Below, in pieces: positions 43,410 through 64,000 of a DNA stretch of 64,000 bases. The stretch lies in assembly GCA_010093815.1 (NCBI GenBank), contig ML996577.1, one strand, 5' to 3'. Source of the stretch: Pseudovirgaria hyperparasitica. Lineage: Eukaryota. The notes under the pieces were generated by a model that was not told the origin of the DNA, searched no databases, and saw only the letters and a program-made list of their open reading frames with translations. Each line of letters starts with the position of its first letter. The first letter of the stretch is position 1. The translations under genes and the position numbers were made by a program.

Positions 43410-43425
43410 CAAACCAAAAATTGCC

Positions 43426-43525
43426 AAAAAAATCTGTAATCTCTTTGATTAAGTCCGTCATCCTTAGTGCAGGGGCCGAGCTAATCTTCTCTGTATCGTT
43501 TCATATTGACTAAGTGCCCGAAGGC
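43426..43525 (-). ncRNA. U6: U6 spliceosomal snRNA (variant sequence)
   Basis: Minus strand reads GCCUUCGGGC...GAUACAGAGAAGAUUAGCUCGGCCCCUGCACUAAGGAUGACGGACUUAAUCAAAGAGAUUACAGAUUUUUUU. It has the 5' stem-loop, ACAGAGA box, AGC triad, ISL and T7 terminator, plus a TATA-like TAATATATT 23-31 nt upstream. Confidence 0.92.
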
Positions 43526-46044
43526 GAAGTACATCCAATTTTAATAGAATATATTATGCAGATTAAAGAACTGCGGATAGTGGGACACTGTTTGGTACTA
43601 GCCGGGCACCCGTAAAGGTAGGTGCTGGAGGTGAATGTGGCCTGATTTGGGAGCCTGTGCGCGCTATTGGCTGCAGATCTATGACTACACTGACACTGTT
43701 ATGAGCTAACTTGAATTAAAAATGAGTTGCCTTGACAGTTTTCCATCGCTAGATGACGGGGCATTGCTTTGCAGTGATCTGGGTTTACGCCACCACTGAA
43801 GCGTTGGCTAAGAAGGAGAGACACACATACAATCTCGGCTGTGTCCACGCGATTGTAGCGATCACAGATTAGCTGAAAGAGCGTAGTCATGAACCCAGGG
43901 ATTGGAAGAAGAAATCAATCACAGTATCTGGAAATGGAAGTCTACCGAAATGTACATTGTTTCTATATCTTGCAAAGGCTATACCTTGTTGACTCACTGT
44001 ACAGAAGTTATTCTACACGTACGTACTATAGGCTTTCTTGATCTGCTATCTTTTCTGCATTTCTAGCTAATTACAATTATCCTGTCGACTGCTATGGATG
44101 ATGGAGGTCATGCCCATCGCGCAGATATAGTCCTCACATATGTCAAAACCTGGAAGAAGTTGATCGTGCTGCGAGAGCTCTGATCAAGATCGCTTTCTTA
44201 CTTGATGTCTATGCTTCTGGCTACGATCTCTCCATTCTGGCTATGAGTTCTCTGATGTTGTGTATCGGAGCATGTACGTGATCGCCAAGGAAGAAAATTG
44301 CTTGCTCTGTAATCTGTATGTTGTAGTGGACCTCTTGGGACTACAGAATGAGAGTTCAAGGAAATGAGGAGCCTACTCAATCTTTAGCTAGTTCAAAGTA
44401 TACGTTCTTGAGAAGTCCAGGTTTCATGGGTACTGACCTCCCTAGCACTATGCGCTTGCTTGTGACATCTCGCTGCTTTTCGAAAGGAAGGTATGCTGCG
44501 AGCATGTTCAACATCTCTCTCACTCGCTCGCCCATGTTGTTTGTTCGTGGGCTTCCTGTGTTCCCCTGTACAGTCGGTCAAGGGGGAGTTTAGAGGTTAG
44601 ATACACATAATTAACTTTGTATGCAGCGTAAATATAAAGAGTGGACTTATCGAAGGCCCTCAATCGTAACCGAATCGTTCATTCTATTCTTACTAGCGTG
44701 GGTTTCAGTGACCTGCTGATTGTGCAATCTGCTTGTGGTCCAAGCGTTAGACCTTGTAATCCCCCAGTCCTTCCTCGCTTCACATTTTGCCCACAAACTG
44801 ATGCACCTACAATCCCACACTCATTTTGGCTTGTCACAATTCCTTCAATCGAAGTTTGTGCTCATCACACCAAATCTTCCTTCCTTCCATGGTTACTAGC
44901 ATCAATTGTGAGTACCACTCAGGGCACGATTCAGAACTTGAACTTCACATTTTTGTTTCAACTTTGACGCTCATATCTGATTCTTTACCACCATGTCACG
45001 AGTAACACTGTTCGGTGTAGATTTCAAGCAAGGCAGCCAAGTCATTACTTCAATGAACTGATCTCAACCGCAATGACAAGGTCAAGACATGTCAAATACT
45101 TGGTACGTATACTCAACGCCACGAATGTCTACAGATTTGACCGTCAGAACCTCAGCTGACACATACTTTGCACTAGATATAGAGGAACTCAACTCTCAGC
45201 CTAAGTCTCAGAATTGGCAAGAGTTCTAGTCTGTTCTTTCAATGAACAGTTCATCCGACAGTCTGGTAGCTAGTCTGCTTGAACGCAGGATCTCAAATAC
45301 AGATTTCTATACCGAGCAGGTAAAGAAAGTGTCAGGACATGTCGAAGAATGTGAGTCCGATATGTACGTCGATGGATTCCGGCCTTTCAAGGTCAGAGTC
45401 TTCTTCAGTCATCATGACGAGCTTCGCTAAATTTGACAGACCACGGCTTGAGCTGAAAGTGCGTTCAAGGATTCTCGAAGCTCCGCAGCTGCACGGAGAT
45501 GGTCTATTCGAGTACCTGAACGGTTCACTTCCGTGACACTTTCGAAAACTGTATTGTGAGGTAGAAAGTTTGACAGATACAGTATGAGTACTTCATCCCG
45601 AAGTAATTACGAAAGCTAAGTTGTCATAGTCAGGTGTACGATGACCAATGCCCAGCAAAGACATCCCAAGGATACTACAAGATCTACAGGCCTGGAGTAC
45701 CTCCCCAAGCGGCCGTCTGCTCACACCCTGTGAGATGTCACAGCCAAATCTGAGTACATCAGGGAACAATACACCCTCAAAATCAGAGTTCCACTTCATG
45801 CACAGAAAGATTTTTGCACGTCGACAAGTATGGTGCAGTGGAAACACACAGTTACGCAGGAATCGAAATATACTGTGAATCTTCTTTCCAATCATAACGG
45901 ACTAAGAAGAACTGGCGTGTGATTGACCACGTGTCATCATCATCTGGCAACCACGTCTTCCTTCAATGCTGAGCCAGCTTTAGACAGGTCCACCTAGCTA
46001 TACCTAGGCTTTCATTCCCTTTGTCTCTCAACTCTTCTTTCATG

Positions 46045-46389
46045 GCGTTTTCGCCACCAAAGATCCTCTCCCACCTGATATATATATATATCACCCTGTG
46101 TATTTGGGTTAACTGCGATGTACACAACAGTGCCGTACTTGTCGTTGCGGTTGACCGCAAACGGCGAACATTAGTGATAGCCAGAAGGATGGCTATTGAG
46201 ACATTCGCTTTGTCTCTTAACTCTTATTTCATGTCTCAATAGCCATCCTTCTAGCTGTCACTGGTGTTCGACGTTGCGGTCAACCGCAACGACAAGTACG
46301 GCACTGTTGTGCACATCGCAGTTGACCCAAATACACAGGGTGATATATATATATATTAGGTGGGAGAGGATCTTTGGTGGCGAAAACGC
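46045..46389. repeat. Long inverted repeat (fold-back): about 160-bp arms and a 26-nt loop
   Basis: 46045-46204 is the reverse complement of 46231-46389 apart from a few differences, mostly transitions. Confidence 0.95.
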
Positions 46390-46755
46390 AATTGGCGGCC
46401 TCAACGTTGATTCATCGGTCGATGTCAAAGCCATCGAGGTATGTGGACACTGAAATCCTCGTCGGAGAGGTTCTCCGCCATGACTCGAGTCATCTGAGGA
46501 AGGGGACTGGCCTCGGTGGCTAGTCCCACTGTGAGCAATATGAGTCCGACTAAAGGCCATCACTTGTGCCACTCAAAACACGGTGATGGTCGTGCTCGCA
46601 CACGATTGGAGTCCCTTGAGGTCAACCGAGCCTAGCAATTTTGTGGTCGTCGCCGCGGTGTATAAAATAGCAGGACGATAGTGGAGATCTATTCGCCCGA
46701 TAGTGACCGATACTATCGTCCTGGCGACTATCACCGCGGTGGCGACAGAGAGGAC

Positions 46756-46810
46756 CGTGACGAAAGGGGAGATCGCGACCTCAGCCGTTACAATCTCCCC
46801 TTTCGTCACG
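46756..46810. repeat. Perfect 18-bp inverted repeat/hairpin
   Basis: CGTGACGAAAGGGGAGAT (46756-46773) pairs with ATCTCCCCTTTCGTCACG (46793-46810). Confidence 0.9.
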
Positions 46811-48465
46811 ACATGTACACCTGTGTTCTAGCACGAAACCACATTACGGGAACCGAGTATCGTCACTCCGGTCGAGCCATGGAAAGGATGAGTGGAGGTT
46901 TGGGGATAGAAAAGGGAAGTTCTTTGGGACGACTGTAAAAGGTCCTACACTACCCTGGACCTGCCAGAGTTGGAAACTCGACAGTCTCTACATGAAGAGA
47001 ACAGGTCCAGGGTGGTGGGATTACGGATTCTGATTTTCTTTGGCTATACACTTGGTGGCGTTCTTTGGTGGTGGAAGAGAAACCGCGGATTCAGATAAAT
47101 CTTCGGTCTGGCTCTGCAGTTGGGCAGCACGATTGGTCCATAATATCAATAAACAACGAAAAAGCATCATCATCATCATCTAAAACTACGTTCTCTGTCA
47201 TCTTTGTTTCGTGATGTTTTCCCTTTGTAAAGCCCTGCGCGTCTTTCAGCTCCCTTGTCGCGCCAAGACTTTACCCCTGAACCCCACGTGTGGAAGAGCT
47301 ACAGCTAGCCCTGGGCCCCGCCAATACCTAAGGCACCAAATAGCGGGGTAAGAAGTAATAGAGCTCCAGGAAAAGGGGCTGATGGAAGTTTCATCAAAAC
47401 GTCTAGAAGATACCATGGGAGATGAAACGATGAGCTATACAGACTATTTAATGAAACCGAGAAGCCCGATTCTCCGCTAGACACTGATTGATGCAACGCT
47501 ATTGCTGTGCAAAATCGTGCACTTTGACAATGCAGTATTATTTTTCCTACCTAGGACGTACTGTGTGTGTGCGAGTGCCAGTCTATCGACTCCATGGGTG
47601 CTTCAGATAGATAATTATCTTCATGGGATGTTATAGCTGTCATAATTCGCCTGATTTGACTGGAACACCATTGAGACTACACTTGCGGCATACATCATGG
47701 ATGCCGAGGATATAAATATGTCTCATAGTGTATTCTTATTAGGGGCATCTCTAGGGGAGAAGAGTTAGTTCATGGAAAGATGAGAAGTCTAAATATCTGA
47801 GGGCTATGTATGCCATATATAGTAGACTTTATGTAACATATAGGAGTACTGGATCTGCTTAGACGGGTACTATATAGGTGTAAATCCTGCCATGCGGTTG
47901 GAGTAGAGGAGATACTGTTGCAGGAGGTGAAACAGGCATTTTCCATTGTTATATGCTACATATGGCTGTTCAGTTATTTCGGATAGCAGCTTGAATTATG
48001 AGAGCATATCTCATGGTGCTTATGAAGGTAATTTTTCACCCTGTGCGCGTTGTGCATGATGTTTGTAAGACTTGGAACGCCTGTACTTCGAAGACCTCCA
48101 CAGCGGTCAGGGCTTCTCACAATGGCTTTGATTTCATCATAGTGTCTTAGAACAGCGTATGCGATGGATAATCATCTTAGAACCCGAAAAATTGCTCTTT
48201 TATTAATTGTATAATGGTACTCTGCCTCATAGAGACGCCCAATTGTCGAAATATGTCCATATTTTGCACCACCAAGATCTGTCCCAAGCATTCAAGGGTC
48301 TCCAACCTATTCGTTTCTCGTTAGCATGCAGTTGCTTTCACTGCTTTGTGCTGCCTTGGAAAGCTACATACCGCGATGTCCAACAGCCAAGAATCCCGAA
48401 AGTTGTCCCCAGGCCCCCTTCCGGCTGTGGCGTTTACGAGACCCGACAGCGACGCCCTCTACCAT

Positions 48466-48747
48466 CTATCGTGCAGACTGCTCCCCAGTCTGCGAGGAAC
48501 CCCGAGAGGAGCGTTCCTCCGGTATTGGAGAGAGCTCCACGCCCGTTGAAGGAGGGATAAGCGGGAGGAAGACAGGACGGATGGTGGCACGTTTGGCAGG
48601 TTGTGGTGTAGTTATCTTCTTCTGGGCGTTCAGAGCGGCGGTTTCCTGACGCTTTAACTCAGCGGCGAGCTTTGCTGCTTCTGCAGCCTTCTCAGCTGCC
48701 CTCTGCTCCTGGCGCAGCTTCATGGTGTTCTTCGTAGCTCCAGCCAT
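48466..48747 (-). CDS. Small Ala/Lys/Glu-rich hypothetical protein or pseudogene
   Basis: MAGATKNTMKLRQEQRAAEKAAEAAKLAAELKRQE looks coiled-coil-like; short ORF. Confidence 0.35.
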   Translation of the reverse strand: MAGATKNTMKLRQEQRAAEKAAEAAKLAAELKRQETAALNAQKKITTPQPAKRATIRPVFLPLIPPSTGVELSPIPEERSSRGSSQTGEQSAR

Positions 48748-50993
48748 TGTGACTTGGAGGAAAGGAATGGAGATTCGAAGACAGCTAGAGATTTGATAGC
48801 AGAAGAGTGTTAAAAGGTCCAAGAGAAGGCTGGGAGCGACGATGTATAGCTTGTTCTTGAGTCTTTGGGTGCAGACAAAGGTTTGAGTGAAAGATTATGG
48901 TAGTAAGAGCCGATATAGACGTATTTTGTGCGTTGTCGAGACTGGGGGAATGGTTATTGTGTAAGAAAGTCGATATAATTCTGTGGGTGTCCGTGCGGGC
49001 CTGTTGCCCCTAGAAGCTGATGAGAAATTCAATCACACACTCCTAAGCTTCACTACCTCCATCTCAATCATCCATCAGCCATACTCATCAAGAACCATCA
49101 GAGAACTTCCGCTTTAAGAGGATCGTTGTTCATATCTTTATCTCGATATCATCTCCTTTCTTCTCAACATCATTTGAGACACCTTGTGAGAAACAGTAAT
49201 CGTCTTTGAGCTTTGTCTTTACTAAAGTCAAGGTTTCGATCATTCAAGGCTTGTCTCTGTCCACTACGGGTGTGCATCATCAGTCAGGTGGCCTTTGATA
49301 CCGTGTGTGTGCTCATTGAAGAACACCGTCTTCTCACCATCTTTGGGGTGAGGTATGAGTTTTTCATGAAGGTAGATCCAGCTTCGGCATGATTGGTGAG
49401 TTTTTCCATCTCCAGCGACGCACAGTTCTTGACTTTCATTCGACCCTCACCTTCTTACATCAGGGATAAGAGACTGGTAACTGATAAACGAGATAGTAAA
49501 GCTCTCAGCTTCCTCACTGCCATCTTGACGTCCTTGGCTTCATCGTCAAGGTAGACCAATCACCAAGCAGCAAGGCCGTGACAGGCTCGATGATGCGGAG
49601 CAACAGCCTACCAGCTAGTATCATAGCCTTCTATTCAAAGACCACTGTCTAGATCGTGTCGAAAGGCGAAAATCATACCTGGCAGGTTGAGCGGAGCCGA
49701 AGATCGACATAGTCTGTCAAACTGCATCTTGGAAGTCCGCTGTGCCACGATTTTAATCTTCAAAGTGCTACAGAAGGCTGCGAAACATAACAGACAAGTC
49801 TTCTGTGCACTTCATTGAGGTTTTATCATCGTCGATACACGGATCCGCTTCGGTGCAGTGCTCCAGAAGGCGAAATGATCGACTAACCTCAGCAAAGGAT
49901 CACAGCTGAAGAGTTTCACACTAGTGTACTTAAGATAGAGTCTTTGGCTCAGTGCGTGGAGATCTCTATGCATCATGTCGGTGTGCAGGCCTCCATGGCA
50001 TCACTACCTTGTCGCCATTCCGTACCTTCGGCTCGGAAGAGGTTAAGGACACCCGTCACCACCCAATGGTAGCGAAGACGGTGTCTCAGGCCCAAAGAGC
50101 GTACCGTGTAGCCTAGAGCTCACACTATCAAGTGACTACCTCTGTCATTTTGAAAGACATCGGGATATGTTCGTGAGGTACATCGCTTGCGAGCGTGTCC
50201 ACTCCTTTGTCAGACTGGATTGACTGACATCTTAGCCAGACATGACCCCTCCGCCAAGCTCTTTATCCCATATCAGTATTTTGAAAGGATTTGGAGTCAC
50301 GGTATGATTCTCCTAGGCAAGAATTGCAGGTGATCTGATCGCCAGTATTGAAGTCGACATTACCCCAGGACTCCAGCAACAAGGGATGCTGAGAGCGAGC
50401 CGCATAATGGATGCGTCGCTAAATGCCTTGTTACAGAAAGAACACCCCAACACACCTATTGAGCTCATGCCTCGTGTAGCATCTCAGAGCCTTCTAATGG
50501 GATTTATGTCTCCAGGGGTCGCTGCCAGGTATGTGACTTCCGAGATTGACCGGTTGGAAGGCAGGCGCATACTAAAAGACGTCGAAGGTAGACGTGACTT
50601 TGTGACCTAGAAGGTATACTCAAAGTCGCCAGTATAGCCTTAGTACGTACAGATACTCAAACGTCGTGCGTTCAGAGAACGATGGCTCCTAGATACGGGG
50701 CCAATCATCGCTATTGAATACCAACATTTAGTCCTGCCAAAAAGCAGTCATGCGTGGACAATTGACGTTTCAAACTGCCCGCCACCACAAGCGGATGTCG
50801 AACTATTGCCAGCACAACAAGAGCTAGGATTCGCACGACTTACAACGGGGCCACCGTGAAGGCTCTACAGCGAGTGAACGGTTGCTCGTGTCCGTCCGGA
50901 GCAAGTTGAGCTTTGCGTGTGCAGGAGAGTGTACGGGTCTGTACAATGACGAGCCGCATGACTACCTGACGAACATGACGGCGCATTCCAGTG

Positions 50994-51995
50994 TCTTCCG
51001 CAGCTTTGGAGCGCGTGGGCCTTTTTTTCCGTTGAGTATTGCATACCTTCCGCAGCTGTATAAGCGCGTGGGTACCCTGGGTCCTTGGAAGAGATTGTTC
51101 AAACCCTTCCGCAGCTATCTGAGCGCGTGGGCTCTTTGCATCTCGAAACGAAGCTTTGTCTCCCTTCCGCAGCTTTTGAGCGCGTGGGTTCTTGTTCCAT
51201 CTTGTTGAAAGCATCGAATACCTTCCGCTGCCATGTGAGCGCGTGGGTCTTCTTTTGTATTTTTTTGTTGAGTCTTTCCACATCTTCCGCAGCTATCTGA
51301 GCGCGTGGGTTTCCTTCTGTCCTTCTCGCTTGTATCTTTGCAAACCTTCCGCAGCTATCTGAGCGCGTGGGTTATTCTGCGATTCACATGAAGATTCGAG
51401 TACCTTCCGCAGTTTTAAAACGTGTGGACTCTTCCGCCGTCTTGTTAGAAGTTTTGTAACCTTCCGCAGCAGTATGAGCGCGTAGGACTCCCTGTATCTT
51501 TCTTTGTTTGAGCCTTCCAAGACCTTCCGCAGCTTCGAGCGCGTGGGTTGTTTCTGCATCTTGTTTGGTACCTTCCGCAGCCATCTGAGCGCGTGGGTCT
51601 GCTGGGTCCTCCACAATACTTCTCAATACCTTCCGCTGCCCTGTGAGCGCGTGGGCTTCCTTGTGTCTCTTTTCGTCGAACCTCTGAATACCTTCCGCTG
51701 CCTTCTGAGCGCGTGGGCTCTCGCGCCATTCTGATAAAGTTGCAATGCCTTCCGCAGCCATGGGAGCGCGTGGGACGTTCATGTACCATTGGATTACCAG
51801 TCTGTCGCAGCTCCTTTAGCGCGTGGGCTCATTGTAGATGTTGAACCCATATTCTTTCTGGGCATTTCAGTTGCGTGCTTGGATTACGAGTCACCGAAGT
51901 CTTTACCTTACGCCGCTATAAGCGCGTGGGTTTGACGTTATCTTCATCTCGTTCAAAGTCATCTCGCGCCTTACGCAGCTTTCTGAGCGCGTTGG
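50994..51995. repeat. Regularly interspaced array of about 17 copies of CCTTCCGCWGC-N3-5-GAGCGCGTGGG with 23-38-bp dissimilar spacers
   Basis: Repeat starts at 50994, 51046, 51105, 51163, 51221, 51283, 51345, 51403, 51460, 51523, 51571, 51629, 51691, 51748, 51801, 51906 and 51969; decayed copies lie near both ends. Confidence 0.95.
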
Positions 51996-54900
51996 CCTTC
52001 CCCCTCTTGTGTTCAAGGATTTGGTTTCGATACTTTCTCAGAGCTGAACATGTGAGAAAATCCTCTTCGAAGCAGATGAATGGTATGGAATCGACGACAA
52101 GGCGACCAATCTGCGGCTGATATCATTAAGCTGTCGGGCTTCATGGCTTACTCCTGTTTCTCTCATGAATTGAAGTCCACTATTTGACGTACGGGAGGTC
52201 CGGGAAAAGTTCTCTAGGGCTTTTGTCGGTTCGGCTTCTTTGGTTCGTCTTCCGAGCCGCTTTCAAACATGTAAAGAAATTTGATTGTGAGCGCTAAGGA
52301 GCTATTGGTATGAGAATTCGGATCTCCGAGAACCTTTTGAGGTATCATTGGGTGCGAGCCAAGTGCAGTGGTAAACCCTGCGAACTTACGGTCTGTCATA
52401 TCTTTGACACAGGATTCGTTGTACAATAACAGTCCGCACTCAGTAAAGCTCTCTTGGGAAGCTTCGTTAAAGGTGTTTCAATGGGAGAGATTGATCCGGT
52501 ATTGTTCTAGCAGGCAGTCCAGACACTGTAGGACTGGTAATAAGCGTCGTAAGATCCTACTAGGAGCGATATGATTGAAGGATGGTATGTGGAGAGGCAT
52601 CTTGATGATCTAGCGGTCTCCATTTTCGAAGCACGTATGATGATGATGTGCTGCCGAAAGCCGTCCAAGGGAGGTTTTCCACCTGTTATGTGGTATTTGC
52701 TGTCCGTCTTAGTTTCTCCTGGGGCCTCGATAGCTCCCCAGGGTACTTGTCATCATCACCTCTTAGCGGTGCGGACAATGTCGATGATGTGGCCTTGGCT
52801 TACGACTGGACCTCCCAATCCAGGAGCCAACTAACCATCGCGTGCCCCATTCAAGGAGCAATACCCAACCAGTTCAAACGGGTCGCAAGGGTACCGTTGC
52901 TATCGGACGAGGTGATTAGCTTCTGCCCTTTTCGGTATACAGTCCTCGACGTTTAAGCTCAAGGCTAATCATGACTTACATTCTGGTGGGCCGCGATATG
53001 ATCATCCCCGCCTGTATAGGCTCTCCGAACCCCCAAAGCGCCAGAGCGCGGTCCGGATTCATGGCGTGCTCAATCGCCAAACGCAGCTTCCGCACGAGCA
53101 AAAAACGGTTCACTTGCCAGTCTGAGGTGGCAATGGTCACAGGGCGAGTGCCAGATCCAAGCTCCAAGGAGACGATGATCTGCCGTGCGAAGACTCGGCC
53201 ATGGGTCGACCGAGTCTTCTCCCAGACATAAATGTCTGCTCCTGGCCTGCGCACCCAGCGTCGGGCAGTCCGAATCAAAGCAGCCTCCGCGGCTGGAAGG
53301 CGGGTTCTGCGGTGTTGTGTCGACATTTTTGATGGTTGTGCGGTATCGTGCGTTGGATGCTGCGTTATGAGTGTTGACAGAGCTCAAGATCTTTGCAAGT
53401 CAACAAAGCCTGTCACTGCAAAGCTGCACCGCTCCTTAGTGGCCCCACTTTTTGCAGGACCAGTATGGAAAACTTTACCACATGCTATGATATCCCCTCT
53501 CAAAGGTTACGGAGGGGTAGGGCCTTGGCCTGTCGTTGCACAGATTCATTCTTACAGGATACATCTTCATGTTTGAGGATATGCAAGCAGCATATTATGG
53601 AACCCCTATACAGCAACATCCGACAGCCAGTTCCGCCCTTGCCGTGTATCAGCACCCCTTCGATGTTTTGGCACCTAATGCTGCGGTGCCGAGAGTCTAC
53701 GTCCAGAGCTCACTAGCGAAGATTGGCAGCACTTGAAAATGCCTCGCCAATATCCAGACGTAAGTTCTCTTCGTTGGTATGCTTCTCGATTTGACCTTAG
53801 CACTGACACCTCCGGAATAAGCCACCGGGAGCATGTTTCCACTGTGAGCACACTCCTGATGAGCTTCACTCCTGCGTTCGTGGCCGCTGCCTCCTAACAA
53901 CGGATCTCTCTGATGTCGTTGCCGGAGGAAACTACATGCCCGTGGTGTATTAATAGGGATCCATACACTTTCAGGCGGATACCAAGAATCTTGGTATCAA
54001 AATCTGTGAGCGGACTTGGTGGACCATAGGAGGACGATACAGCATCCGAAGGAGAATAAGTTACCGTCACACTCGTATTAATTTCAGGAAGGCAGAGGAA
54101 TATGCATGGGATTTAATATACTGTTCTTATATGTCCCCAGAGGCTCTTCACATTCCATCAGTATAGCAAGAAAGCGAATATGAGATGCGTATGCATGCCA
54201 CAGCATATGGATGGTAGTCCTAGTAACACCTAAGCGTGGAAATTACTTCAGAATAAAGCAAATTATGAGTCTCCCACAGTCCACAACTACGAGCGATCAT
54301 GTCCTCATAGAAGTCCAAGAAGCTTCGCAAAATCGAAGCCTTGGGATATGTCTCATACATTCCATTTTAGACCTGCCTCAAGGCAAAACTATCTTGAATG
54401 ATCTCGCATACCATGTCCAACAAATTATGATTACTGTCGCGCCATGAGCCTAGTATAATATCCATACGGCAGCACATAGTCAGGACTAGCCAGCTCTTCT
54501 CGTACCAGGGTAGACAAGTCCTGCCAACCGGTCAGATATAAACTTCCTTCCCCTGATCCGCTGGATGCCATTATGTGTTACCGAAGGAGCTGTATGCATC
54601 CACGACCGTCTAGGAAACTAAACTTTACTCCAAAGGCAACAACGCAGCACCTGTTCAGTATTCCTAGAGATAGAAGTGCCATGTACAATAGCTACTTGAA
54701 GTGAAGCCTCTGCTTTGGATATCTGCAACTCTCGTGGCGCGGCGTACGCTCGACAATGAAAACGTATGAACAGCTCGCGGTGGCCTCCAGACTAATGTTA
54801 GCTTGAAATCGTCTAATATATATTTTGTCCTACCTGTCTCTTGTCTTAAAACCTTATTTCTCAGGAAGGTGAGAGACCTCAAGTCTGGCGGTAAAAGTAC

Positions 54901-55536
54901 ATTGTTGTTAGGGAGAGGGTCACCGAGAGACCTTGAGCAGCTGGCAACGGCACCAGTATGTTATTATCATAACCTCCAGATGTGGCTGTGATTCAAACGT
55001 ATCATGGAATGAATTATCACTAAGCAGGATATTTCAAGCTTCAAACATGACCAAAACACAGATGCTGATACACTTCTGCAATACCGCACGCACTGAGCCG
55101 TGATGATACATGGCAGCCCAAATGTAAACTATCATCCGTGTTTCCACAAAAGTCGTCCATCGCCTCTGAACCTCTGGGAGTTACGCCCAAAAGGCATCAA
55201 GAGCCACAGTATCCCTATCATCAGCGCCTCCATGAGCCTAAAGCATACGTCACTGCCAGCCTCCTCTTCAAGACCATTTCCGCTCCCTGATCCCAGTCCT
55301 TCCACAGACGCTAGGCTTCACTTCCTTCCCAAGCGAGATGTTTCCACGCTAGTACAATCCGAGACATCAGAATCGATTCGAAGGTCGGCGATGAGGAGTT
55401 GCCCAGGTCAAGTGAACGCTAGTCCTCTCTCAGCTCCTCATATTCGATCCGATGTTGATCCATGGGCTTACGTGATCCTGCCTCCCAGTCTATATAAACA
55501 GCTGCTCCCTCTCTCGCTCCTACACCTTTTTTCCTT

Positions 55537-55816
55537 ATACTGTAGTGGTACTCATCCAACAAGTCGCTTCGGTGGCTTTCGTTGGGTGGCCCGCACCTTG
55601 CCCCCGGTGCAGGTATTCCCCTTGTGGGCTATTCTTTGGAACAAACTTCCCCATTTCCCTTCCTTTCCCTTCCCCTTCCCCTTCCCCTGCCCTCCGGTCA
55701 GAAGTGACCATAACTACTTGGTCAGCAGTGACGCTAAACACTCAATCTTTGGAATCAGCTGAGCTTTTGCTTGGCACCGTGTGGCTTGTACCATTGCACT
55801 ATCGCAGGCCAACGCG
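55537..55816 (+). ncRNA. Putative Sm-class small RNA unit A (possibly two RNAs or domains)
   Basis: TATATAAA at 55491, then a pyrimidine tract and AUAC start. A cUUCGg-capped hairpin with G-U pairs spans 55553-55588. Sm-like sites are AUUCUUUGGAACA (55631) and AAUCUUUGGAA (55744). Confidence 0.45.
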
Positions 55817-56598
55817 AACTCTTTTTTTCATTGTCATTTGGCCTCTGTGCTGATTGCGAGGAAGAAAATCCTTCATCTGATTGCTTTACTACTTTTTGGT
55901 GTGTGATCTTGAAGACCTTTGAGCATGTTGATAGCCTTTACCTTCGTCGTAATAAGAGAATATGATGAGAACATGATGCAAAGATCCATGTAAATAGCTG
56001 AAATGAGAGTGCAAGTACAAGGAGAAACATTGCTCAAGCTCATACCTACTGAGTCTGAATCTATCGCACACAGCTCAACAGCTCCAGTACGATATGTTCG
56101 TGTCAATCGCCCTTCCTCCTTCCCATAAGATGATTTCGCAACAGTGAAAGCAGACGGATGACACAAGGTCAGAGAGCTTGTACTTGAAGTATCGAATAAT
56201 GCACGCCCTGAGCCACCCTGCGCTTCAATGGCCTACATCGATGGACTTGAAACAGATTTCCACCACACTTCGGACCTGACGCTCGCAGAATACCTCCTCG
56301 AACGCCTGTTAGTTCAATGGGAACATATCCTTTGAAGAGTACACAAGCTCCAAAGCAGCTGGCCAAGCACTCCAGAAAAGCATCTCACTGACCGCGTAGG
56401 TCCTAAATCCACTGGCTTCGGCTCCAATAACGTGACCAACAACTTCCAGGCTCGGCCCCCTGCAAACAGGCAGCACGGATCGACATACCGTAATAGCAAC
56501 TACATGCGGCTAGCTTCCCTGGATCCAGGATCCAGATTATCGTTCCCCAACTATATAAGCTTGCCAACCCCCGCCCTCTTTCATCCTTTTTTTTCTCC

Positions 56599-56765
56599 AT
56601 CGTGCAGTGGGTCACTCACCCTTGGTAGTGCTAACTTTTGGCCTATCAAGGATGCAGAAAGTGTCTCTGAGTGTGCAGTGAAGAATTGTCTGAGCGCACC
56701 TCACTCTCTCTCGACATTCGTGTCAGAGAGGAATTTTTGGAACATTTTAATCGTTTGGGATTGTG
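56599..56765 (+). ncRNA. Putative Sm-class small RNA unit B
   Basis: TATATAA at 56552, AUCG start, hairpin 56620-56651, and a UUCG-capped hairpin 56706-56730 directly before the Sm site AAUUUUUGG at 56732. Confidence 0.55.
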
Positions 56766-57723
56766 GGAAACTCTTTTTTTTTCATTGCTGTCTCGGCCTT
56801 TGTGCTGGACACAAGGGAGAAGCCCTCTGATCATTCGTCTCTTTTTCATTGCTGTCTGGCCTTTGAGTTGGACCCAATGAAGAATTTTCTCCCACGGACG
56901 CCCAATTTCTGCCTATTGCTGAATCTTTGTGCGTCGTATGGCCTACGTCACATCCACGACTTACAGTGACGATGAGAGTCTCAAGCGTCTGTGGAATGCT
57001 TGTCATCTCACTGCGTCTCTGCTGCGTTTCTAGACCCGAGTGGAACTCATCTCATAAGGCATGGTATAGTACAAGATAGGCTGTCAATGGAAAGGCGCAG
57101 GTGGATCGCTGTAGAGGTATTATCGTTGACTGTCTCACTAGAGTCTCGGTGCGTTAACGAAGCTCAAATATATAGCTAAGCGATGTCAAATTTGGTCATT
57201 GACTGAGCAGGAGGCGCTATAGAGACACTGATTCATAGAGTGCTATTAGGACTTGTAAGAGCTTGTATTATCGGTTCAAAGGCACATTTCGTCTGATCTA
57301 GTGGGAGCGATTTAAATTCTGCAAGCAGATTCGCTAGTTACATACACACCTTCACCGTCACTGTTGAATCAAGGAACAACCTGGGCAGTGCTGGACCTAC
57401 GAGTTATGCTTGAAGCTACCATGGATTACAGGACAGCAGGTAGCAATACCAATTATGTACATCTCGATATACTTGATGAGTATTGCTGTCGTGCAATGTC
57501 CCAGTCTCGTCGTCTTCTCACCGACTCTCACGCCCGCCTGGCCCTACGTGCTTGAGTATCCACAATAAACACCCATGCTATGACAAATCACTAGTTGCTG
57601 TGCCAGTGAGTGATGTGACTAAAGCGGAAGTGTCACGTGAATCACCCGTCCAGATGTAGCTAGTCTCAGGTCCAACGACTATATAAACAGGCCTTCCCCC
57701 TCCATCTCACCTATTTTTTCTTC

Positions 57724-57826
57724 ATCCGTTCCGGCCTCAGTGCTGGGATAAGTGCAGAGGCAACTCCTCCAGCTCCTGCTGGTCTTCGTGATCGCCAGGG
57801 AATTTTTGGAACACAATCATGGATTG
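57724..57826 (+). ncRNA. Putative Sm-class small RNA unit C
   Basis: TATATAAA at 57680, AUCC start, a GCCUC/GAGGC stem, a UUCG-containing hairpin closed by CCUG/CAGG before the Sm site AAUUUUUGG (57801), and a small 3' hairpin CAAUC/GAUUG. Confidence 0.55.
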
Positions 57827-60800
57827 AGAATACCTTACTTCTTACCTTTTTCATTGCTATTTGGCCTCTGTGCTGGATACAAGGAAGAAACTGTCTCTTC
57901 TTGGTCTGTCTTGAAATTTGGCGTTGAGCTGCACCTATCTCGTGTTTCTGACGGGCGTACCACGGTGAAGACGCTGCTATTGAAGGAGTGTGAAGTCCCG
58001 ACTGCCCTGTCCACGTATATCATTGCAAGATCTTACAATACATCAAGCTACTTTGAGCTCCTCTTGCCTTAAGCTGTTTCCATATCAAAACGAAGCTTAG
58101 CCTTTGCCAGTGGGACGAAATAACTTCTCTTTACATGAAGCCCTTCCACGAGGCAAGTCCAGTTCGAGATCTTATCACTGGAAGAACAAGTGGCGGCAAT
58201 CTCTTAAGCTTTCAGCGTTTCCAAGAATAAGCTATGCTAGTTTTAGAGCCCACTGATAAGAAGATTGTGACCGCGAAATGACAGTGGCGAGTGTGTTTGA
58301 GGTTGTGAACCTTCAGACGAGATGTCGAGACCTTGAAGTATAGGTCAGCCAAACCACCCAAGTCTCTACGAAAATCCTGTGGAGAATAGACCTAACCTTC
58401 TACGGATGATAGATGAGATCAATAGCCGATGAATTATGACTTGCCTGTACTACGCTTTGGTCAGAGCAAGCTTTGAATCAAGAACGAGACCACGACAGTC
58501 TCTAGCAGATCGAACACTCCACCTACGAACCGACATAGCAGAGAAGCAGAAATAGCTAGAGATTGAAGCAGATACTAGCTTGGACATGAAACATACACGC
58601 AGAGGCAACACGGCATTCCATGCAAATTCAAAATGTGCGTTGTAACTACGCCTACAATTTGGACCCACTGTGGCCAGATCCGCACATAACATCAATTAGT
58701 GGCGTACTATGGGAACCAGAGAAGATGTAAGGCACGGAAAAAACGCTGTAGCACTGGTATTAATGGCATAGTGCAAGAACTTGAGATCTGGAGCTGCACA
58801 GTACAAGATCTTAAGACAATGTGTACGGTGTATCGCTATCATATGAGAAAAGATACCACATGTGCGCTATCTTGCCTGAAGCAGTGACATGCCACGCCTC
58901 GTAGGCTCAAAGCATCGCCATCTTTTCTTGCAAGGTTTCTCTGTGTACCGCCCCAATGTAGAATGTACAGGACAGTCTACGTGCCAAAAGATATGATTCC
59001 GTATTACACTAGCCCAATGCATTGTTCCATTCCGACTCTTTCTAGCAAATGTGGTTTCCATGCTGTGGGTGGTTATGCAGAATGAGGCCCGTTTCGAAAT
59101 TGCGGAGAGCAAGGTGTCTTTGGTATCTACGGACATGTTTTAACATATCTCTTTACATTCGCAAGTGTAGAGTATAGGGACAACATGACCGTTGTGAGCA
59201 GGCCGCGTGCAGCAGCTATTGAGTTATGATTAGCGAAAAGACATGAAGCACCCGGCCAAGAGCATGACTTACAGGCTAACACACCGTTTACACCCCGATG
59301 GCCATATAGTCTATGTTGCCAATCCCTAGTAGTATCCTATGCACGAGGTGCGCCGATAGCTAAGATCTGTGCTTCCTCGTTGGCAGGTATACCAAATGTT
59401 CTGATTTCTGCGCGGCCACAGCGCCCATTACAGCTATGCCCCTCTTGCACGTCCCGCGTATGTATTCATGGCTTTGTCTTCGCATTGTCCAATACTACGA
59501 GCACAGGACTTCCTCCATCGAAAAATCTCTTTCTGTCGTCTTTCCAGCCCCAATTCCCATATTTGGTCGCACTCTCTTCGCATCTTAAGGCGAACGTCGT
59601 AGTCTGCAGCACGCCAAAGCAGTCGTCACCAAAACAGGGAATGCCGCAGCGAGCGCTTCATTGGCCAGCTAAGCAGGCTTCTTTCTTCCTTCGGAGCAGG
59701 AACGAACCATCGCCAAACCATGGGCGCAGCCCCACGTAGTCCAAAGCTTATTCCAACCACTGCAATGCTATGTCTCTTGAGCCTCCGCATATCGATATAT
59801 ATGTATTGGATGGGGGCGAGTCTGGAATGCGCAAGGCCGCCGGCATGAGGAAAACGGCGGGCTTTGGGTGCTCGAGGGGCAGGTCCTACGAAGGCGAGAC
59901 TTCTGTGTTGCAATTTGGCGCAAGTGACATGGCGCATGAGAGCAGGAAGAGACTAGAAGTAAATTAGCTACCATATGATCGCCTTTAACTGTATGCGCAA
60001 CCCATGTTGGTGCGTGATGACACGACTGGCTTGAGTCTGGACGGCCCGCCTGAGCGGTTTGCGGTACATTTCCAAACGCCAATAAGGAATGGCCTCGTTT
60101 GTTTGAGCTTCTCTATAAGCGCATTGCCTGTATTGATTGTACTTGTTTGCTCAGCGTGCTGCATCTCCTGATACGCAGCCGACTGATCCAGCTTTGGGCC
60201 TCCATGCTCTTGCGCATCCCTCTATCTGGCGTGCGAGCAGGCCTGATGTACGCCGAGGGCAGTGTTCGATGCGTCTCTGCTCCTGATATTTCTTGCCCAT
60301 CCGACGTAAGGGTCTCGCCTTCGGAGGGCATCGTAGTAGAGATTAGGATGGCATTATCATCCTAGCGCCCTACTCTATTAAGAATTTAGTATAGGCGGGT
60401 CTCACAAACGTCTCGGCGCTATTCTTTTCATCATAGTATAAACTTACCCTGACACGATAATTGCCATCGATGCCAAATATCTTACGATCATGAGGTGATG
60501 GGGACCCTACTCATCTGCGAACGGCGAGGATGATACGTCTGCCGCATAATCTTGGTGTTTGTATAAGTGTCGAAGTTGGGAATGCAAGGCGCAATCTTTG
60601 GGACGTCAGAGAAGAACTCTCGCCGGCTGGTATACGGATAAGCAGGAGTATGAATCGTGCCTGCTCTTGCAGTTGCAGTTGCGGCCGAGTGCTTGGATTG
60701 TTTTCATATGCTCTTATTTCTACCAGTTCCGCTGCTGTAAAGAGGATTCGTAATTCGGCTTGTGTGAAGAGGTCCGTCCGATTGACCGAGGGATCCATTG

Positions 60801-63800
60801 TCGGTGCTCCCCAATCAATATATGCTCGAGCTATACAATATGACCAAAGTATATACTAGAAGAGTAAAGAGCTGGAAGAATGAAAAATGTCGTAGTTTGG
60901 ATGTTCATATTCTGTGAACGGAGCTGGTGGAGTTTCTGCAACACTAGCTTAATCTTGCTAACGCTCCCTGCAACCAAAGTCGCCCCATGCCCGGCGACCA
61001 CGTTTGGGTCCTCGCACTTATATACAAAACATACGTTCTACCGATGGCCATCAGCGGCTACCATGTCATTGCTCAATTACATCTTGACCGAGGTCTTACA
61101 CTCAGAAAATGGGAGAGCAGAGATGCTTGGCCCAGCAGTACGAGTCTCTGCACACAAGCAGTCAACTTCTTGCCAGATGTCTAGCAGGATGTGACGAAGC
61201 CCACAGCATTTCAAATCTTTACCTTATGGACTTATGCTAATTCCTTTATAACCCATCGCCTTCGACGGGCCCGTCGGATGCAATCTTCTCTATCCTATTC
61301 AACAGCACCACGGCTCTACAGTTCGATTGAGCAGGCAATAGGAGGCACCACATAGACTATCGAAGACTGGAGAGCTCGGAGCAAAGCAGGTTGCACTACA
61401 CAAGCAAAGTCTACCCGATCATTATGCTGAAAAGCAGGACTATCTCTATCTAGTGCACATGCACTGTCCTAATTTCAATCTGCAATTGCCTACGCGAGTA
61501 CCATCATGAGCCCAATACTATAATCAAATCATAGCCTGATAGCGGATGGTGATTAGAATGGAGATGTACTCCATAGGGTTCCCAAAATTTTTGTTAAGAG
61601 AAAAAGTGGATTTTGTATGACTACAATAAATGCTCGGGCAGGATTCCAAGGAGGGTATACACTGCCAGGTTGCGAAATTGCTCAAATACCAATTCATATG
61701 CTCTTCGATCTCTGTACTCATATGGGGGGTCAGGCGTCGTGTTGAGGTTTGTGATTATTGTATGACAGGTCACAGAAGTGAGAATAGATGATGTTTGAAT
61801 CCTAAGTCGCTCATGAGTGTTGATAACGGCAATTGGCAAATTATCAAAATACAATAGTGTGGATCTTGGCCTAAGAGGTGGAGACTCCGTACACGTAAAG
61901 CATGGAAAGGAGGAGCAAAATTAGCCAAGTGTCCAGAGTGCACCGCTATCTATAATCCAAGGCTTGTATTAGAGTAACAGCTAGGAATGCAGAAGAAGAT
62001 GGTCACTGCTCAGTGGAACGTAGAATAAGCAATTACATAGACATACATGAAGCTAGATATCACAAAGAAGGTGTTTACAATTACGTTACTTCCTAATCTT
62101 CAAGGCTGCAGACCTACATGCCGATGAACTACCTATCTAAGAAACAAGATTGCTATCGTACGTCGTGATGGGAGTGAAATGCAATGCTACACGGTGGGAA
62201 AGATTAGTTCCACGTGTATCCAATCATTACAATCGAAGCGAACAGTGCCCAATGACGCTCGACAGGCCGTAGCTATGGTGGTCGAAGCTTTACCCTTAGC
62301 GAGTTCTTTGTTGACGTGTGTCTCCCTGTCCCACAAATATATTTTCTCCCAGCTTCCCCCAACTACCTATCCACCATCACACAATTCAAGACCTTCCTCA
62401 ACTTTTCTCTTCTCATCAATCTCTTGCATCTTACTTATTAACCTATCATTATACAAACGATGATTCCTTATCTTGCCGGAATACTCGTCGGTCTATACCT
62501 GGGTTTGCTCTACAGGTACTTGCTGGTGGACCCACAGTACCAAATAGAGGTCTTCATTTACGACACTCCTGCTGCACGACAGCTGCTTTTGAACTTGATG
62601 AGACTCGGCGTCGTACCTTAGACTGTTGATGGCTCGTCTACATTTGTGCTGTAAGTGGCATCAATACAGTACCCTAGATGGGGCTTAACGATCGACTCTT
62701 GCACAACTACTAACTTCAAGCAGCTGATGACCTTGCACGCACTTGGTGTTTTATTATGGCATCAATCTCCACTTCCATTTTTCAGACAGGTATGTTTATC
62801 TCTCCCTTGGTTCACGAGCCTAAGATTATGATGATATATTCATACACTTCATCTTCTTGAATCTCCATGATAACACAATTCACTGATTTCCAATCTCCCT
62901 TTGCTTCTCTAAACACATCTCAGAACATTACATTTGACTGACTTGCCTCTTACAGAGTTTCATGATACCTCCCGTCTCGATACTAGCATCTTGCATGGTA
63001 TCACAGGCGATGTCGTGTAGGCTCTTCCTCTCAGTACACCTGCGTAGCCGGTCTTGAATGGTAATGGTATCTTGAGAAGTAGCAGAGTAGCCAAGTAAGT
63101 TTCCTCTTTCCTCTCCCGATATACTGAAACATCAGTATCTTCAGTGACATGTTTACTTGGTCTTGCTCGGACAAGCTACAGGATACAGGATATCACCTCT
63201 CATCAAGCGAGCATCTGCTAATTCGACGCACAGTAATATTACAAAGTCCTATATATCGGCAGCTCATGCCATGGTCTTCTCTACTTTCATGTGCTCAATC
63301 ACAACATTTGGCACACCAACCCTAGAGGGGCTTGGCTTTCAATGCTTTGACCTGCGAGGTGTGTGCCTAGAAAGAATAGACGCACAAGTTTACACTTCCG
63401 TGCTATCTCAAGGCAATGATAGTGCGGTCTTTCTATGCGAACAAATTATTGAATGCAGACATAGGTTCAGATCAAGACAGATTGAAGAGATTTCATCGCT
63501 AAGTCCATCGATTTTATCTGCATTACTCTCACTGACCACCATTCCCAGATGCTCAATCAAGACTATGTTCGTCAAATCTGTCATAAGATATGGACAGATC
63601 AGCTGAGTTGTTTCCTAGCCTCGCTTTCACACACCTCGCTAACTATTCCCATGAATTTCATCCTTCCATTTAGCAGATGCAATTGCATCTTGACTCTCTG
63701 TACCTTGGCTTCTTTGTCGTGTCGTGACTAGCTAAGTATCGTATCCCTCATTCTTGAACTTTTACTGACATTGCCGCATCAACATACTTTAGATTTAGAT

Positions 63801-64000
63801 GACTGAGTATGACTTTAGTCTGCCTCGCCTGGCTCAAGACTTTGGGGTTAGCTGAATTATAGCTACACTCTAGTGACAAAGAGCAAGATCATCGTAGCTA
63901 GTCTGCGATGCAATGGAGACTCCTTCCGGTCATCAATCCTAGAACTTGGTAGCTAATACATTGCATACATCGCAGTGGACTTCCTCAATATTCGGTCTTT

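What the first reader, a model, noticed from the sequence alone, without database searches (positions are those of the whole stretch)
55491..57890. Three dispersed snRNA-like transcription units with Sm sites that match no canonical snRNA
Seen: each unit has CTATATAA, a pyrimidine tract, and an AT start 44-47 nt from the TATA (55537, 56599, 57724). Each then has G-U-containing hairpins with UUCG loops on the plus strand, an Sm-type site followed by GGAACA (55631, 56732, 57801) and a shared downstream box. The bodies differ in sequence and lack the U1 ACUUACCU, U2 GUGUAGUA and U5 GCCUUUUAC hallmarks. Established: RAU4-6G between stems is the Sm-ring site of Pol II snRNAs. Inference: an undescribed family of Sm-class RNAs (variant snRNAs or SL/SmY-like), 12 kb from a variant U6.
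Basis: partly seen in the sequence, partly recalled or inferred. Interest (0 to 1): 0.8.

Follow-up and report, generated by a model that had tools for sequence, protein, structure and literature searches.

The report
Cluster of divergent U4-like snRNA genes
A fungal genome carries three neighbouring small-RNA genes with shared start and stop signals that look like rearranged relatives of the splicing RNA U4 and could pair with U6, but whether they are made or used is untested.

Summary
Three plus-strand units (about 55490-55867, 56551-56884 and 57679-57890) share a CTATATAA box, a pyrimidine tract, a UUUGGAACA Sm-type site and a downstream box found four times and nowhere else in the window. 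The host is a fungus, apparently a Dothideomycete.

No unit reaches any Rfam threshold, and the U1, U2 and U5 hallmark motifs are absent. The units do not look like a wholly unrelated family, though. Each carries a roughly 40-nt module with two strands complementary to the neighbouring, ordinary U6, in the order U4 uses (stem II strand, linker, stem I strand). Unit 2 also has a K-turn hairpin that the Rfam U4 model aligns to the U4 5' stem-loop. Its position is wrong: it lies 3' of both strands, not between them.

The downstream box folds into a conserved hairpin of about 17 bp with compensatory changes. It resembles the RNase III (Pac1) hairpins that follow fission-yeast snRNA genes.

Best reading (confidence about 0.45): a tandem family of rearranged U4-derived Sm-class RNA genes.

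I could obtain no genome, relatives or RNA reads, so expression, Sm binding and the existence of a canonical U4 elsewhere are all unknown.

The parts
55490..55536 (+). Unit 1 promoter-like region: CTATATAA (55490-55497) followed by a C/T-rich tract ending in T6
   Evidence: (repeat D6)
55537..55822 (+). Unit 1 putative RNA body, about 286 nt if it runs to the downstream hairpin. It has a 69-nt 5' domain with a UUCG-capped hairpin, the U6-complementary module, a CCCTT-rich stretch (55646-55692) and a 3' part.
   Evidence: The ends are inferred, not mapped.
55606..55637 (+). Unit 1 U6-complementary module: GGTGCAGG (55606-55613, stem-II-like), a 12-nt linker, then GGGCTATTCTTT (55626-55637, stem-I-like, overlapping the first Sm-type site at 55631-55643)
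55744..55816 (+). Unit 1 3' part: a second Sm-type site AATCTTTGGAATC (55744-55756), a hairpin, then a hairpin (55778-55816) with ATTGCACTATC in its loop. Weak match to the 3' domain of the U2 model.
   Evidence: (U2, 13.8 bits, E 1.5)
55824..55867 (+). Downstream hairpin B1
56551..56598 (+). Unit 2 promoter-like region: CTATATAA (56551-56558) followed by a C/T-rich tract ending in T8
   Evidence: (repeat D4)
56599..56764 (+). Unit 2 putative RNA body, about 166 nt
   Evidence: fold z -2.44; 6 of 200 shuffles fold as well. The ends are inferred.
56602..56639 (+). Unit 2 U6-complementary module at the very 5' end: GTGCAGTGGG (56602-56611), an 18-nt linker that can form a small hairpin, then GCTAACTTTT (56630-56639, which pairs only if one U6 base bulges)
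   Evidence: It fails the ungapped two-helix test.
56671..56699 (+). Unit 2 K-turn hairpin: GTGTGC / AGT / GA / AGA-ATTG-TCT / GA / GCGCAC
   Evidence: aligned to the U4 5' stem-loop with high posterior; pattern search and chance rate
56705..56763 (+). Unit 2 3' domain: a UUCG-capped hairpin (56705-56731), the Sm-type site AATTTTTGGAACA (56732-56744) and a 5-bp terminal hairpin (56748-56763)
56778..56884 (+). Downstream hairpins B2a (56778-56821) and B2b (56842-56884), in tandem
57679..57723 (+). Unit 3 promoter-like region: CTATATAA (57679-57686) followed by a C/T-rich tract with T6
   Evidence: (repeats D4, D6)
57724..57827 (+). Unit 3 putative RNA body, about 104 nt. Its first 26 nt (57728-57749) resemble the top of the downstream hairpin.
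   Evidence: E 0.018; z 4.5, 0 of 200 shuffles
57751..57787 (+). Unit 3 U6-complementary module: AGTGCAGAGGC (57751-57761), a 16-nt linker, then GCTGGTCTTC (57778-57787)
   Evidence: (0 of 500 shuffles)
57772..57827 (+). Unit 3 3' domain: a hairpin, the Sm-type site AATTTTTGGAACA (57801-57813) and a 5-bp terminal hairpin (57814-57826). Weak match to the 3' third of the U4 model.
   Evidence: U4 model positions 82-138, 12.3 bits, E 0.88 and 0.42
57847..57890 (+). Downstream hairpin B3
43426..43525 (-). Ordinary U6 snRNA gene, the proposed pairing partner
   Evidence: (72.8 bits, model 1-105)

Best explanation
The three units are a tandem family of paralogous, Pol II-transcribed, Sm-class small nuclear RNA genes. 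They are rearranged relatives of U4 snRNA.

Inferred: each is started by a TATA box plus pyrimidine tract, about 45-48 nt upstream of an A.

Shown as sequence potential: each RNA carries a compact module of about 40 nt whose two strands can pair with the two U6 segments that normally pair with U4 (stem II and stem I), in the same order and orientation. A short C-rich linker takes the place of the U4 5' stem-loop.

Shown as sequence: unit 2 also keeps a U4-type K-turn hairpin, a central stem-loop and the Sm site, but the K-turn lies 3' of both U6-pairing strands. Units 1 and 3 have no K-turn.

Inferred function: the RNAs form Sm snRNPs that bind U6. Either they act as alternative U4-like partners, or they hold U6 away from the tri-snRNP.

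Structure shown, function inferred: the conserved hairpin just downstream of each unit is cut by the fungal RNase III (the Rnt1/Pac1 orthologue). That cut would form the 3' end and terminate transcription.
For: 1. Gene-like anatomy. Only the promoter block, the Sm block and the downstream hairpin are conserved, while bodies and spacers differ.

2. U6 complementarity in the U4 order. In an ungapped two-helix test at thresholds 18/20, unit 1 passes (2 of 500 shuffles do) and unit 3 passes (0 of 500). Scanning the whole window on both strands at 20/20, the only places with such a pair are the U6 antisense itself, unit 1 and unit 3.

3. Cofolding with U6 residues 34-75 gives the same two-helix junction for all three units. 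The ddG values are -15.4, -15.9 and -11.9 kcal/mol, reached by 3, 7 and 30 of 200 shuffles. Their duplex energies are matched or beaten by 0.27%, 1.8% and 1.3% of 3000 random genomic 50-mers.

4. The stem-I-like strands differ between units (GCTATTCTTT, GCTAACTTTT, GCTGGTCTTC) yet each still pairs, through A-to-G changes opposite U (read).

5. The U4 model aligns unit 2 positions 56660-56751 to model positions 11-138. The K-turn hairpin lands on the U4 5' stem-loop with high posterior probabilities. The U4 clan gives the highest-scoring hit for unit 2 and the only spliceosomal-snRNA hit on the gene strand for unit 3.

6. A K-turn is reported in all U4 and U4atac RNAs (PMC2396436, passages).

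7. Downstream hairpin: 17 pairs; 97.1% of cells paired against 50-60% when the partner is slid; 3 pairs with changes on both sides; covariation score reached by 11 of 500 shuffles.

8. In S. pombe, hairpins lie directly downstream of all four Pol II snRNA genes, and Pac1 triggers termination there. Pac1 needs about 20 nt of dsRNA and tolerates bulges (PMC8421224, passages).

9. U4 and U2 are reported as poorly conserved in sequence in Aspergillus (PMC2377427, passages).
Against: - No unit comes near an Rfam threshold. The best scores are U4atac 16.5 and U4 11.6-12.3 bits against thresholds of 53 and 46, and all E-values are near 1 even in windows of 90-200 nt.
- In the U4 alignment of unit 2, the 26 nt that should hold the stem I strand are missing.
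- The K-turn pattern is not rare. With a 6-bp stem, 1.57 are expected per window and 2 are seen. With a 4-bp stem, 11.6 are expected and 9 are seen.
- Less specific pairing tests are negative. The single best helix to U6 is matched by 113, 98 and 38 of 200 shuffles. Full-length duplex energies are ordinary. In a window-wide duplex scan, unit 1 ranks only 18th and units 2 and 3 are not in the top 20.
- Unit 2 fails the ungapped two-helix test.
- I chose the thresholds after seeing the data. The three modules are paralogues, so they are not independent trials.
- Fold z-scores are modest: -1.16, -2.44 and -0.83.
- There is no evidence of transcription, cap or Sm binding, and no homologue from any other genome.
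- The U6 regions used as stem I and stem II were defined from my recall of the yeast and human U4/U6 structure.
Confidence: 0.45

Rival explanations
1. Unit 2 is simply this fungus's one working, fast-evolving U4 gene. Units 1 and 3 are decaying duplicates with no function of their own.
For: Unit 2 alone has every U4 element: a 5'-terminal stem II strand, a stem-I-like strand, a K-turn hairpin, a central stem-loop, an Sm site and a 3' hairpin. U4 is reported as poorly conserved in Aspergillus, at 49% identity between two species over the listed interval (PMC2377427, Table 3 passage). In T. rubrum, U4 was missed by the first pipeline (PMC3890542, passage). Fungal snRNAs usually have one or a few genes (PMC2396436, passage).
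Against: The K-turn hairpin lies 3' of both U6-pairing strands rather than between them, and the canonical stem I position is deleted. Aspergillus U4 sequences are in Rfam (PMC3890542, passage), so a normal Pezizomycotina U4 should score far above 16 bits. Units 1 and 3 keep an intact promoter block, Sm site, downstream hairpin and U6 complementarity while everything else has diverged, which is not how dead copies behave. There is no repeat-induced point-mutation signature.
Confidence: 0.2
2. One reading: an unrelated, new family of Sm-class RNAs. The resemblance to U4 and the complementarity to U6 are incidental or inherited by chance from one ancestor.
For: No Rfam family is matched. All model hits have E near 1. 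Generic pairing tests are not significant. The three modules are paralogous, so a single chance event could explain all three.
Against: In 128 kb of sequence counting both strands, the two-helix arrangement at 20/20 occurs only at U6 antisense and at two of the three units. The strands have diverged yet keep pairing. The K-turn hairpin matches the U4 consensus position by position.
Confidence: 0.12
3. These are not stable RNA genes. They are an old 1-kb tandem triplication of a regulatory or mobile-element fragment, in which a promoter-like block and a hairpin survive, perhaps driving unstable non-coding transcripts.
For: The spacing is regular: TATA boxes are 1061 and 1128 nt apart, and boxes are 1018 and 1005 nt apart. 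The units lie in a 20-kb stretch with no recognisable protein domain; 0 of 44 ORFs of at least 90 aa had a Pfam hit. The box resembles the 5' end of unit 3, so pieces have been copied around. There is no expression evidence.
Against: No transposon protein domains. No terminal repeats or other copies in the window. No RIP signature. The conserved pieces are exactly those expected of snRNA genes. The hairpin shows compensatory changes. The plus strand folds better than the minus strand in all three units.
Confidence: 0.1
4. They are the fungus's ordinary U1, U2 or U5 genes in a form too divergent for Rfam.
For: Unit 1 starts ATACT and has a 3' part that weakly resembles the 3' domain of U2, including an ATTGCAC loop. 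Aspergillus U2 is also reported as hard to align (PMC2377427, passage).
Against: The invariant working sequences are absent on both strands: the U1 5' end, the U2 branch-site hexamer context and the U5 loop. These parts do not vary among eukaryotes (established knowledge, recalled). The U2 hit scores only 13.8 bits with E 1.5 and covers only the 3' domain.
Confidence: 0.05

Closest known systems
U4 spliceosomal snRNA (Rfam RF00015; clan CL00007 with U4atac RF00618)
   Same: An Sm site near the 3' end flanked by hairpins. Two strands complementary to the U6 regions just 3' of ACAGAGA, in the U4 order. In unit 2, a K-turn hairpin and a central stem-loop that the U4 model aligns.
   Different: Scores of 11.6-16.5 bits against thresholds of 46 and 53. 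In unit 2 the K-turn is not between the two U6-pairing strands, and units 1 and 3 have no K-turn at all. The stems are shorter, at 8-12 bp. There are extra 5' domains of 23-69 nt in units 3 and 1. Three different genes sit in tandem.
Hairpins downstream of S. pombe U1, U2, U4 and U5 genes, cut by the RNase III Pac1 (PMC8421224). Rnt1 sites behind S. cerevisiae snRNA genes (recalled).
   Same: An imperfect hairpin directly downstream of a Pol II small-RNA gene, present at every unit, doubled at one unit, and conserved in structure.
   Different: Here the stem has about 17 predicted pairs and a 6-nt loop, against 23-32 nt stems and 3-5 nt loops in S. pombe. The sequence itself is 82-86% conserved between different genes, and its 5' strand is the T-run. 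Cleavage is untested.
Variant snRNA genes of animals (for example human variant snRNAs, PMC8457000; I saw the search listing and abstract only)
   Same: Extra gene copies that diverge from the canonical snRNA and may form variant particles.
   Different: Those variants differ by point changes and remain alignable. These units have rearranged domain order and share only short modules.
Herpesvirus saimiri HSURs (recalled; also named in earlier finding e1-5598751)
   Same: Sm-class small RNAs with snRNA-type gene signals whose bodies match no spliceosomal snRNA and act by base-pairing to a cellular RNA.
   Different: HSURs are viral, target microRNAs and mRNAs, and have no complementarity to U6. 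The likeness is in design only.

Membership tests
U4 snRNA (RF00015) | Reaches the curated Rfam score (46 bits) | tested here: not met
   Unit 2 scores 11.6 bits. Unit 3 scores 12.3 bits over model positions 82-138 only. Unit 1 has no U4 hit. Nothing at the gathering threshold.
U4 snRNA (RF00015) | K-turn (3-nt bulge, tandem G-A/A-G pairs) in a hairpin | tested here: met
   Met in unit 2 only: 56671-56699, aligned to the U4 5' stem-loop. The pattern search finds none in units 1 or 3. The feature is described as compulsory in PMC2396436.
U4 snRNA (RF00015) | The K-turn stem-loop lies between the stem II and stem I strands | tested here: not met
   In unit 2 both strands (56602-56611 and 56630-56639) lie 5' of the K-turn (56671-56699). 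The U4 model shows a 26-nt deletion where stem I should be.
U4 snRNA (RF00015) | Two strands complementary to U6 in the order stem II then stem I | tested here: met
   Units 1 and 3 pass the ungapped test (2 of 500 and 0 of 500 shuffles) and are the only such sites in the window besides U6 antisense. Unit 2 passes only with a one-base bulge in U6 (7 of 200 shuffles).
U4 snRNA (RF00015) | Forms a di-snRNP with U6 and binds Snu13 and Prp31 | not testable with these tools
   Needs biochemistry.
Sm-class snRNA gene (Pol II) | Single-stranded RAU(3-6)GR site flanked by stems | tested here: met
   AAUUUUUGG lies between hairpins in units 2 and 3. Unit 1 has two less regular sites, each interrupted by a C (AUUCUUUGG and AAUCUUUGG).
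Sm-class snRNA gene (Pol II) | Discrete transcript with a trimethylguanosine cap and a bound Sm ring | not testable with these tools
   No RNA run could be listed and no genome is held.
U1 / U2 / U5 snRNA | The invariant working motifs: U1 5' end, U2 branch-site pairing sequence, U5 loop 1 | tested here: not met
   None present at 0 mismatches on either strand of 55400-58100. The 1-mismatch hits lie outside the RNA bodies. Motifs typed from recall.
Spliced-leader / SmY RNA | A shared short 5' exon ending at a GU donor, upstream of the Sm site | tested here: not met
   The three 5' ends differ. The SL1 model scores 11.4-11.9 bits against a threshold of 75, from the Sm region only. Trans-splicing is not known in fungi (recalled).
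RNase III (Pac1/Rnt1) processing hairpin behind snRNA genes | Hairpin of about 20 bp or more directly downstream of the mature RNA | tested here: inconclusive
   17 predicted pairs with bulges, 97% paired in 4 copies, 17-33 nt after the last hairpin of units 3 and 2, and directly after that of unit 1. This is slightly shorter than the S. pombe examples. Cleavage is untested.

The most novel reading that the evidence does not exclude
The fungus keeps a canonical U4 elsewhere and also expresses this family of rearranged, mostly K-turn-less U4-like Sm RNAs. They pair with U6 through a compact stem II and stem I module but cannot build a normal tri-snRNP. That would make them a previously unknown class of U6-binding RNAs that store, chaperone or hold back U6, and so tune splicing capacity. 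A sequence-conserved RNase III hairpin would serve as a lineage-specific snRNA 3' box.
Probability: 0.25. Interest if true: 0.85.

Novelty: new variant of a known kind. Interest (0 to 1): 0.6.

Why it matters
U4 is regarded as a single-purpose, architecturally fixed partner of U6, with its K-turn stem-loop lying between the two U6-pairing strands in every U4 and U4atac described. A fungus with three differently rearranged U4-like genes would mean one of two things. Either the U4/U6 architecture is more plastic than thought, or cells can make U6-binding RNAs that are not U4, which would be a new layer of control over spliceosome assembly.

The downstream hairpin would also be the first sequence-conserved 3' box for fungal snRNA-type genes that I know of. 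It would give a simple genomic tag for finding the other Pol II small-RNA genes of this lineage.

If RNA data show no transcripts, the locus is only a curiosity of repeat evolution.

Tried and rejected
- **Own genome.** None is held, so I could not search for a canonical U1, U2, U4 or U5, or for other copies of the box.
- **Sequencing runs.** No RNA holder was listed for 55400-57950.
- **Metagenome scan with the box pattern.** 17 stretches were returned. That is about the number I had estimated by hand for chance matches. Most read as ordinary coding DNA, none has the rest of the box or an Sm site upstream, and none holds any Rfam family.
- **Earlier findings of this scan.** Nothing on this genome, no look-alike sequence, and word hits all concern other organisms.
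- **The genome search through a metagenome locus**, to reach control genomes: not held.
- **Pairing tests.** Full-length duplex folding against U6 and the single best helix were not significant. A window-wide duplex scan was poorly discriminating.
- **A fifth box copy.** A 20-nt match at 41727 lies in a coding exon and is chance.
- **Repeat-induced point mutation.** The indices are normal: TpA/ApT 0.76 and (CpA+TpG)/(ApC+GpT) 1.32 (thresholds recalled).
- **Transposon remnants.** 0 of 44 ORFs of at least 90 aa in 44000-64000 have a Pfam hit at E 0.01.
- **tRNA genes.** None in the window.
- **Upstream promoter element.** Only an ACGTGA-type 8-mer is shared, at three different distances, so it is probably chance.
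- **Literature.** No paper holds the Sm-site string AATTTTTGGAAC or its RNA form. The searches found no description of U4-like variants or of a conserved snRNA 3' box in filamentous fungi; these searches cover only the held library.
- **Supplements.** The A. fumigatus supplement that shows the U4 and U2 structures is a PDF and cannot be read here. These files may hold Pezizomycotina U4 sequences that would bear directly on rival 1.
- **By-eye resemblances to U2.** I saw resemblances between the U2 5' end and unit 2, unit 3 and the box. I dropped them because the U2 model reports nothing there at E up to 10.

Full report
**What is there.** Reading 55300-58100 confirms three plus-strand units of the same build.
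- CTATATAA lies at 55490, 56551 and 57679. There are 4 copies in the window against 1.45 expected, and 7 of 100 shuffles reach 4.
- Each box is followed by a C-rich then T-rich tract and an A at 55537, 56599 and 57724.
- Each unit has a structured body and an Sm-type site ending in TTTGGAACA, at 55631, 56732 and 57801.
- Each is followed by a downstream box, present four times: 55824, 56778, 56842 and 57847.
- Profiles built from the promoter blocks and from the boxes find no further copy in the 64 kb. The one exception is a weak box-like hit on the 5' end of unit 3 itself.
- Bodies and spacers are not alignable between units. Only the pieces expected to matter for an snRNA-type gene are conserved.

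**Context.** An intronless RWD-IBR (Itt1-type) ORF in the window has its best named relatives, at about 60% identity, in Dothideomycete fungi. The host is therefore a filamentous ascomycete without a close sequenced relative in that collection. The units lie in a 20-kb stretch (44-64 kb) where none of 44 ORFs of at least 90 aa has a Pfam domain. An ordinary U6 gene (72.8 bits, full model) lies at 43426-43525 on the minus strand. It is not a variant.

**Not canonical.**
- At Rfam thresholds the window holds only U6.
- With permissive settings on short windows, unit 2 gives U4atac 16.5 bits and U4 11.6 bits.
- Unit 3 gives U4 12.3 bits, over the 3' third of the model.
- The 3' part of unit 1 gives U2 13.8 bits, over the 3' domain of the model, including a loop reading ATTGCACTATC.
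- All of these have E near 1.
- The invariant motifs of U1, U2 and U5 are absent.
- Ascomycota are reported to lack the minor spliceosome (PMC2396436, passage).

**The U4 connection.** I tested each unit for the pairing that defines U4: one strand complementary to the U6 segment that forms stem II, followed by a strand complementary to the segment that forms stem I. I set the U6 segments from recalled yeast and human structures, just 3' of ACAGAGA.
- Units 1 and 3 have such pairs. The helix scores are 20+20 and 23+22, matched by 2 of 500 and 0 of 500 shuffles.
- Across both strands of the whole window at thresholds 20/20, the arrangement occurs only at U6 antisense, unit 1 and unit 3.
- Unit 2 fails this ungapped test. 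It forms the same junction when one U6 base bulges.
- Cofolding gives the same two-helix topology for all three, reached by 3, 7 and 30 of 200 shuffles.
- Their duplex energies are matched or beaten by 0.27%, 1.8% and 1.3% of 3000 random genomic 50-mers. The unit offsets were optimised within 8 nt and the background windows were not.
- The modules align with each other: GTGCAG, a C-rich linker of 12-18 nt, then GCT followed by a U-rich run.

Against this:
- Unspecific tests show nothing.
- I chose the thresholds after seeing the data.
- The modules are paralogues, not independent trials.

**The K-turn.** Unit 2 has a hairpin at 56671-56699 with a 3-nt bulge and tandem GA pairs. The U4 model places it on the U4 5' stem-loop position by position. 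A K-turn is reported in all U4 and U4atac RNAs (PMC2396436). Such a pattern with a 6-bp stem is expected 1.57 times per window. My arithmetic puts the chance of one falling inside the roughly 400 nt of the units at about 0.5%. In unit 2 the hairpin lies 3' of both U6-pairing strands, and the model shows a 26-nt deletion where stem I should be. Units 1 and 3 have none. The elements of U4 are present but in a different order, so I do not file any unit as a U4.

**The downstream box is a hairpin.** RNAalifold folds the four copies into one 17-pair stem. The T-run pairs with GAAGAA, and the loop is 6 nt.
- 97.1% of cells pair, against 50-60% when the partners are slid.
- Three pairs change on both sides.
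- The covariation score is reached by 11 of 500 shuffles.

In S. pombe all four Pol II snRNA genes are followed directly by hairpins, and the RNase III Pac1 triggers termination there (PMC8421224, passages). I infer the same role here. The two tandem copies behind unit 2 would act as a fail-safe.

**Mechanism proposed.**
1. Pol II starts about 45-48 nt after the TATA box.
2. The nascent RNA is cut in the hairpin and trimmed back to the terminal stem.
3. The Sm site loads the Sm ring.
4. The module pairs with U6.

Only the sequence potential and the hairpin structure are shown. All the rest is inference.

**Rivals.**
- Unit 2 may be the only, odd U4 of this lineage, with two dying copies beside it (0.2). 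Aspergillus U4 is reported as hard to align. But Aspergillus U4 sequences are in Rfam, and the 'dead' copies keep all their signals.
- The family may be unrelated to U4 (0.12).
- The locus may be a non-genic old triplication (0.1). No RIP signature was found and no transposon domains.
- The units may be disguised U1, U2 or U5 genes (0.05).

**Limits.**
- No genome.
- No RNA run listed.
- No relatives; the 17 metagenome matches were chance.
- The supplements that might show Pezizomycotina U4 structures could not be read.
- My literature searches found no description of such RNAs or of such a 3' box. They cover only the held library.

Noticed in passing
window 44000-64000: A 20-kb stretch with no ORF of at least 90 aa that hits any Pfam family (0 of 44). 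It has normal GC content and no RIP signature. That is unusual for a compact fungal genome. It is bounded by the U6 gene and holds the three units.
   Followed up: partly
window 57784-57792 (minus strand), inside unit 3: The minus strand reads ATCACGAAG exactly, which I recall as the U1 stem-loop I loop bound by U1-70K. The U1 model gives a faint hit there (57779-57798, 6.6 bits). Unit 3 RNA would therefore carry its exact complement. This may be chance; my estimate puts a 9-mer at roughly 2% over the 2.7 kb and two strands searched.
   Followed up: partly
window 57826-57846: Between the last hairpin of unit 3 and hairpin B3, the plus strand reads ATACCTTACTTCTTACCT, with two near-copies of the U1 5'-end motif (TCTTACCT at 57840, one mismatch). 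Units 1 and 2 have nothing like it.
   Followed up: no
window 56607-56657 (unit 2 nt 9-59): The segment GTGGGT ... GTGCTAAC ... TGCAG has the look of a 51-nt fungal intron: donor, branch site, and acceptor 22 nt on. Removing it does not give a more canonical RNA, so I treated it as coincidence. The same region can instead form a 14-bp hairpin (56619-56651).
   Followed up: partly
window 57728-57749, and 57891-57925 / 55868-55900 / 56885-56935: The first 26 nt of unit 3 resemble the top of the downstream hairpin. The sequence after B3 keeps a faint likeness to the stem-I-like region of unit 3. U-rich Sm-like runs follow B1, B2b and B3 at about 62-81 nt. The boxes may descend from truncated copies of a unit-3-like gene.
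   Followed up: partly
window 55468, 56428, 57633 (upstream of the three TATA boxes): An ACGTGA-type 8-mer (TTACGTGA, TAACGTGA, TCACGTGA) occurs upstream of all three TATA boxes but at -22, -123 and -46. Probably chance.
   Followed up: no
window 43405-43425 (minus strand): The T7 terminator of U6 is followed at once by a second run, GGCAATTTTTGG. This looks like a back-up Pol III terminator rather than an Sm site.
   Followed up: no
window 55646-55692: A CCCTT-type pyrimidine microsatellite sits inside unit 1, between its two Sm-type sites. The 3' part might be a separate TATA-less unit rather than the tail of unit 1.
   Followed up: no
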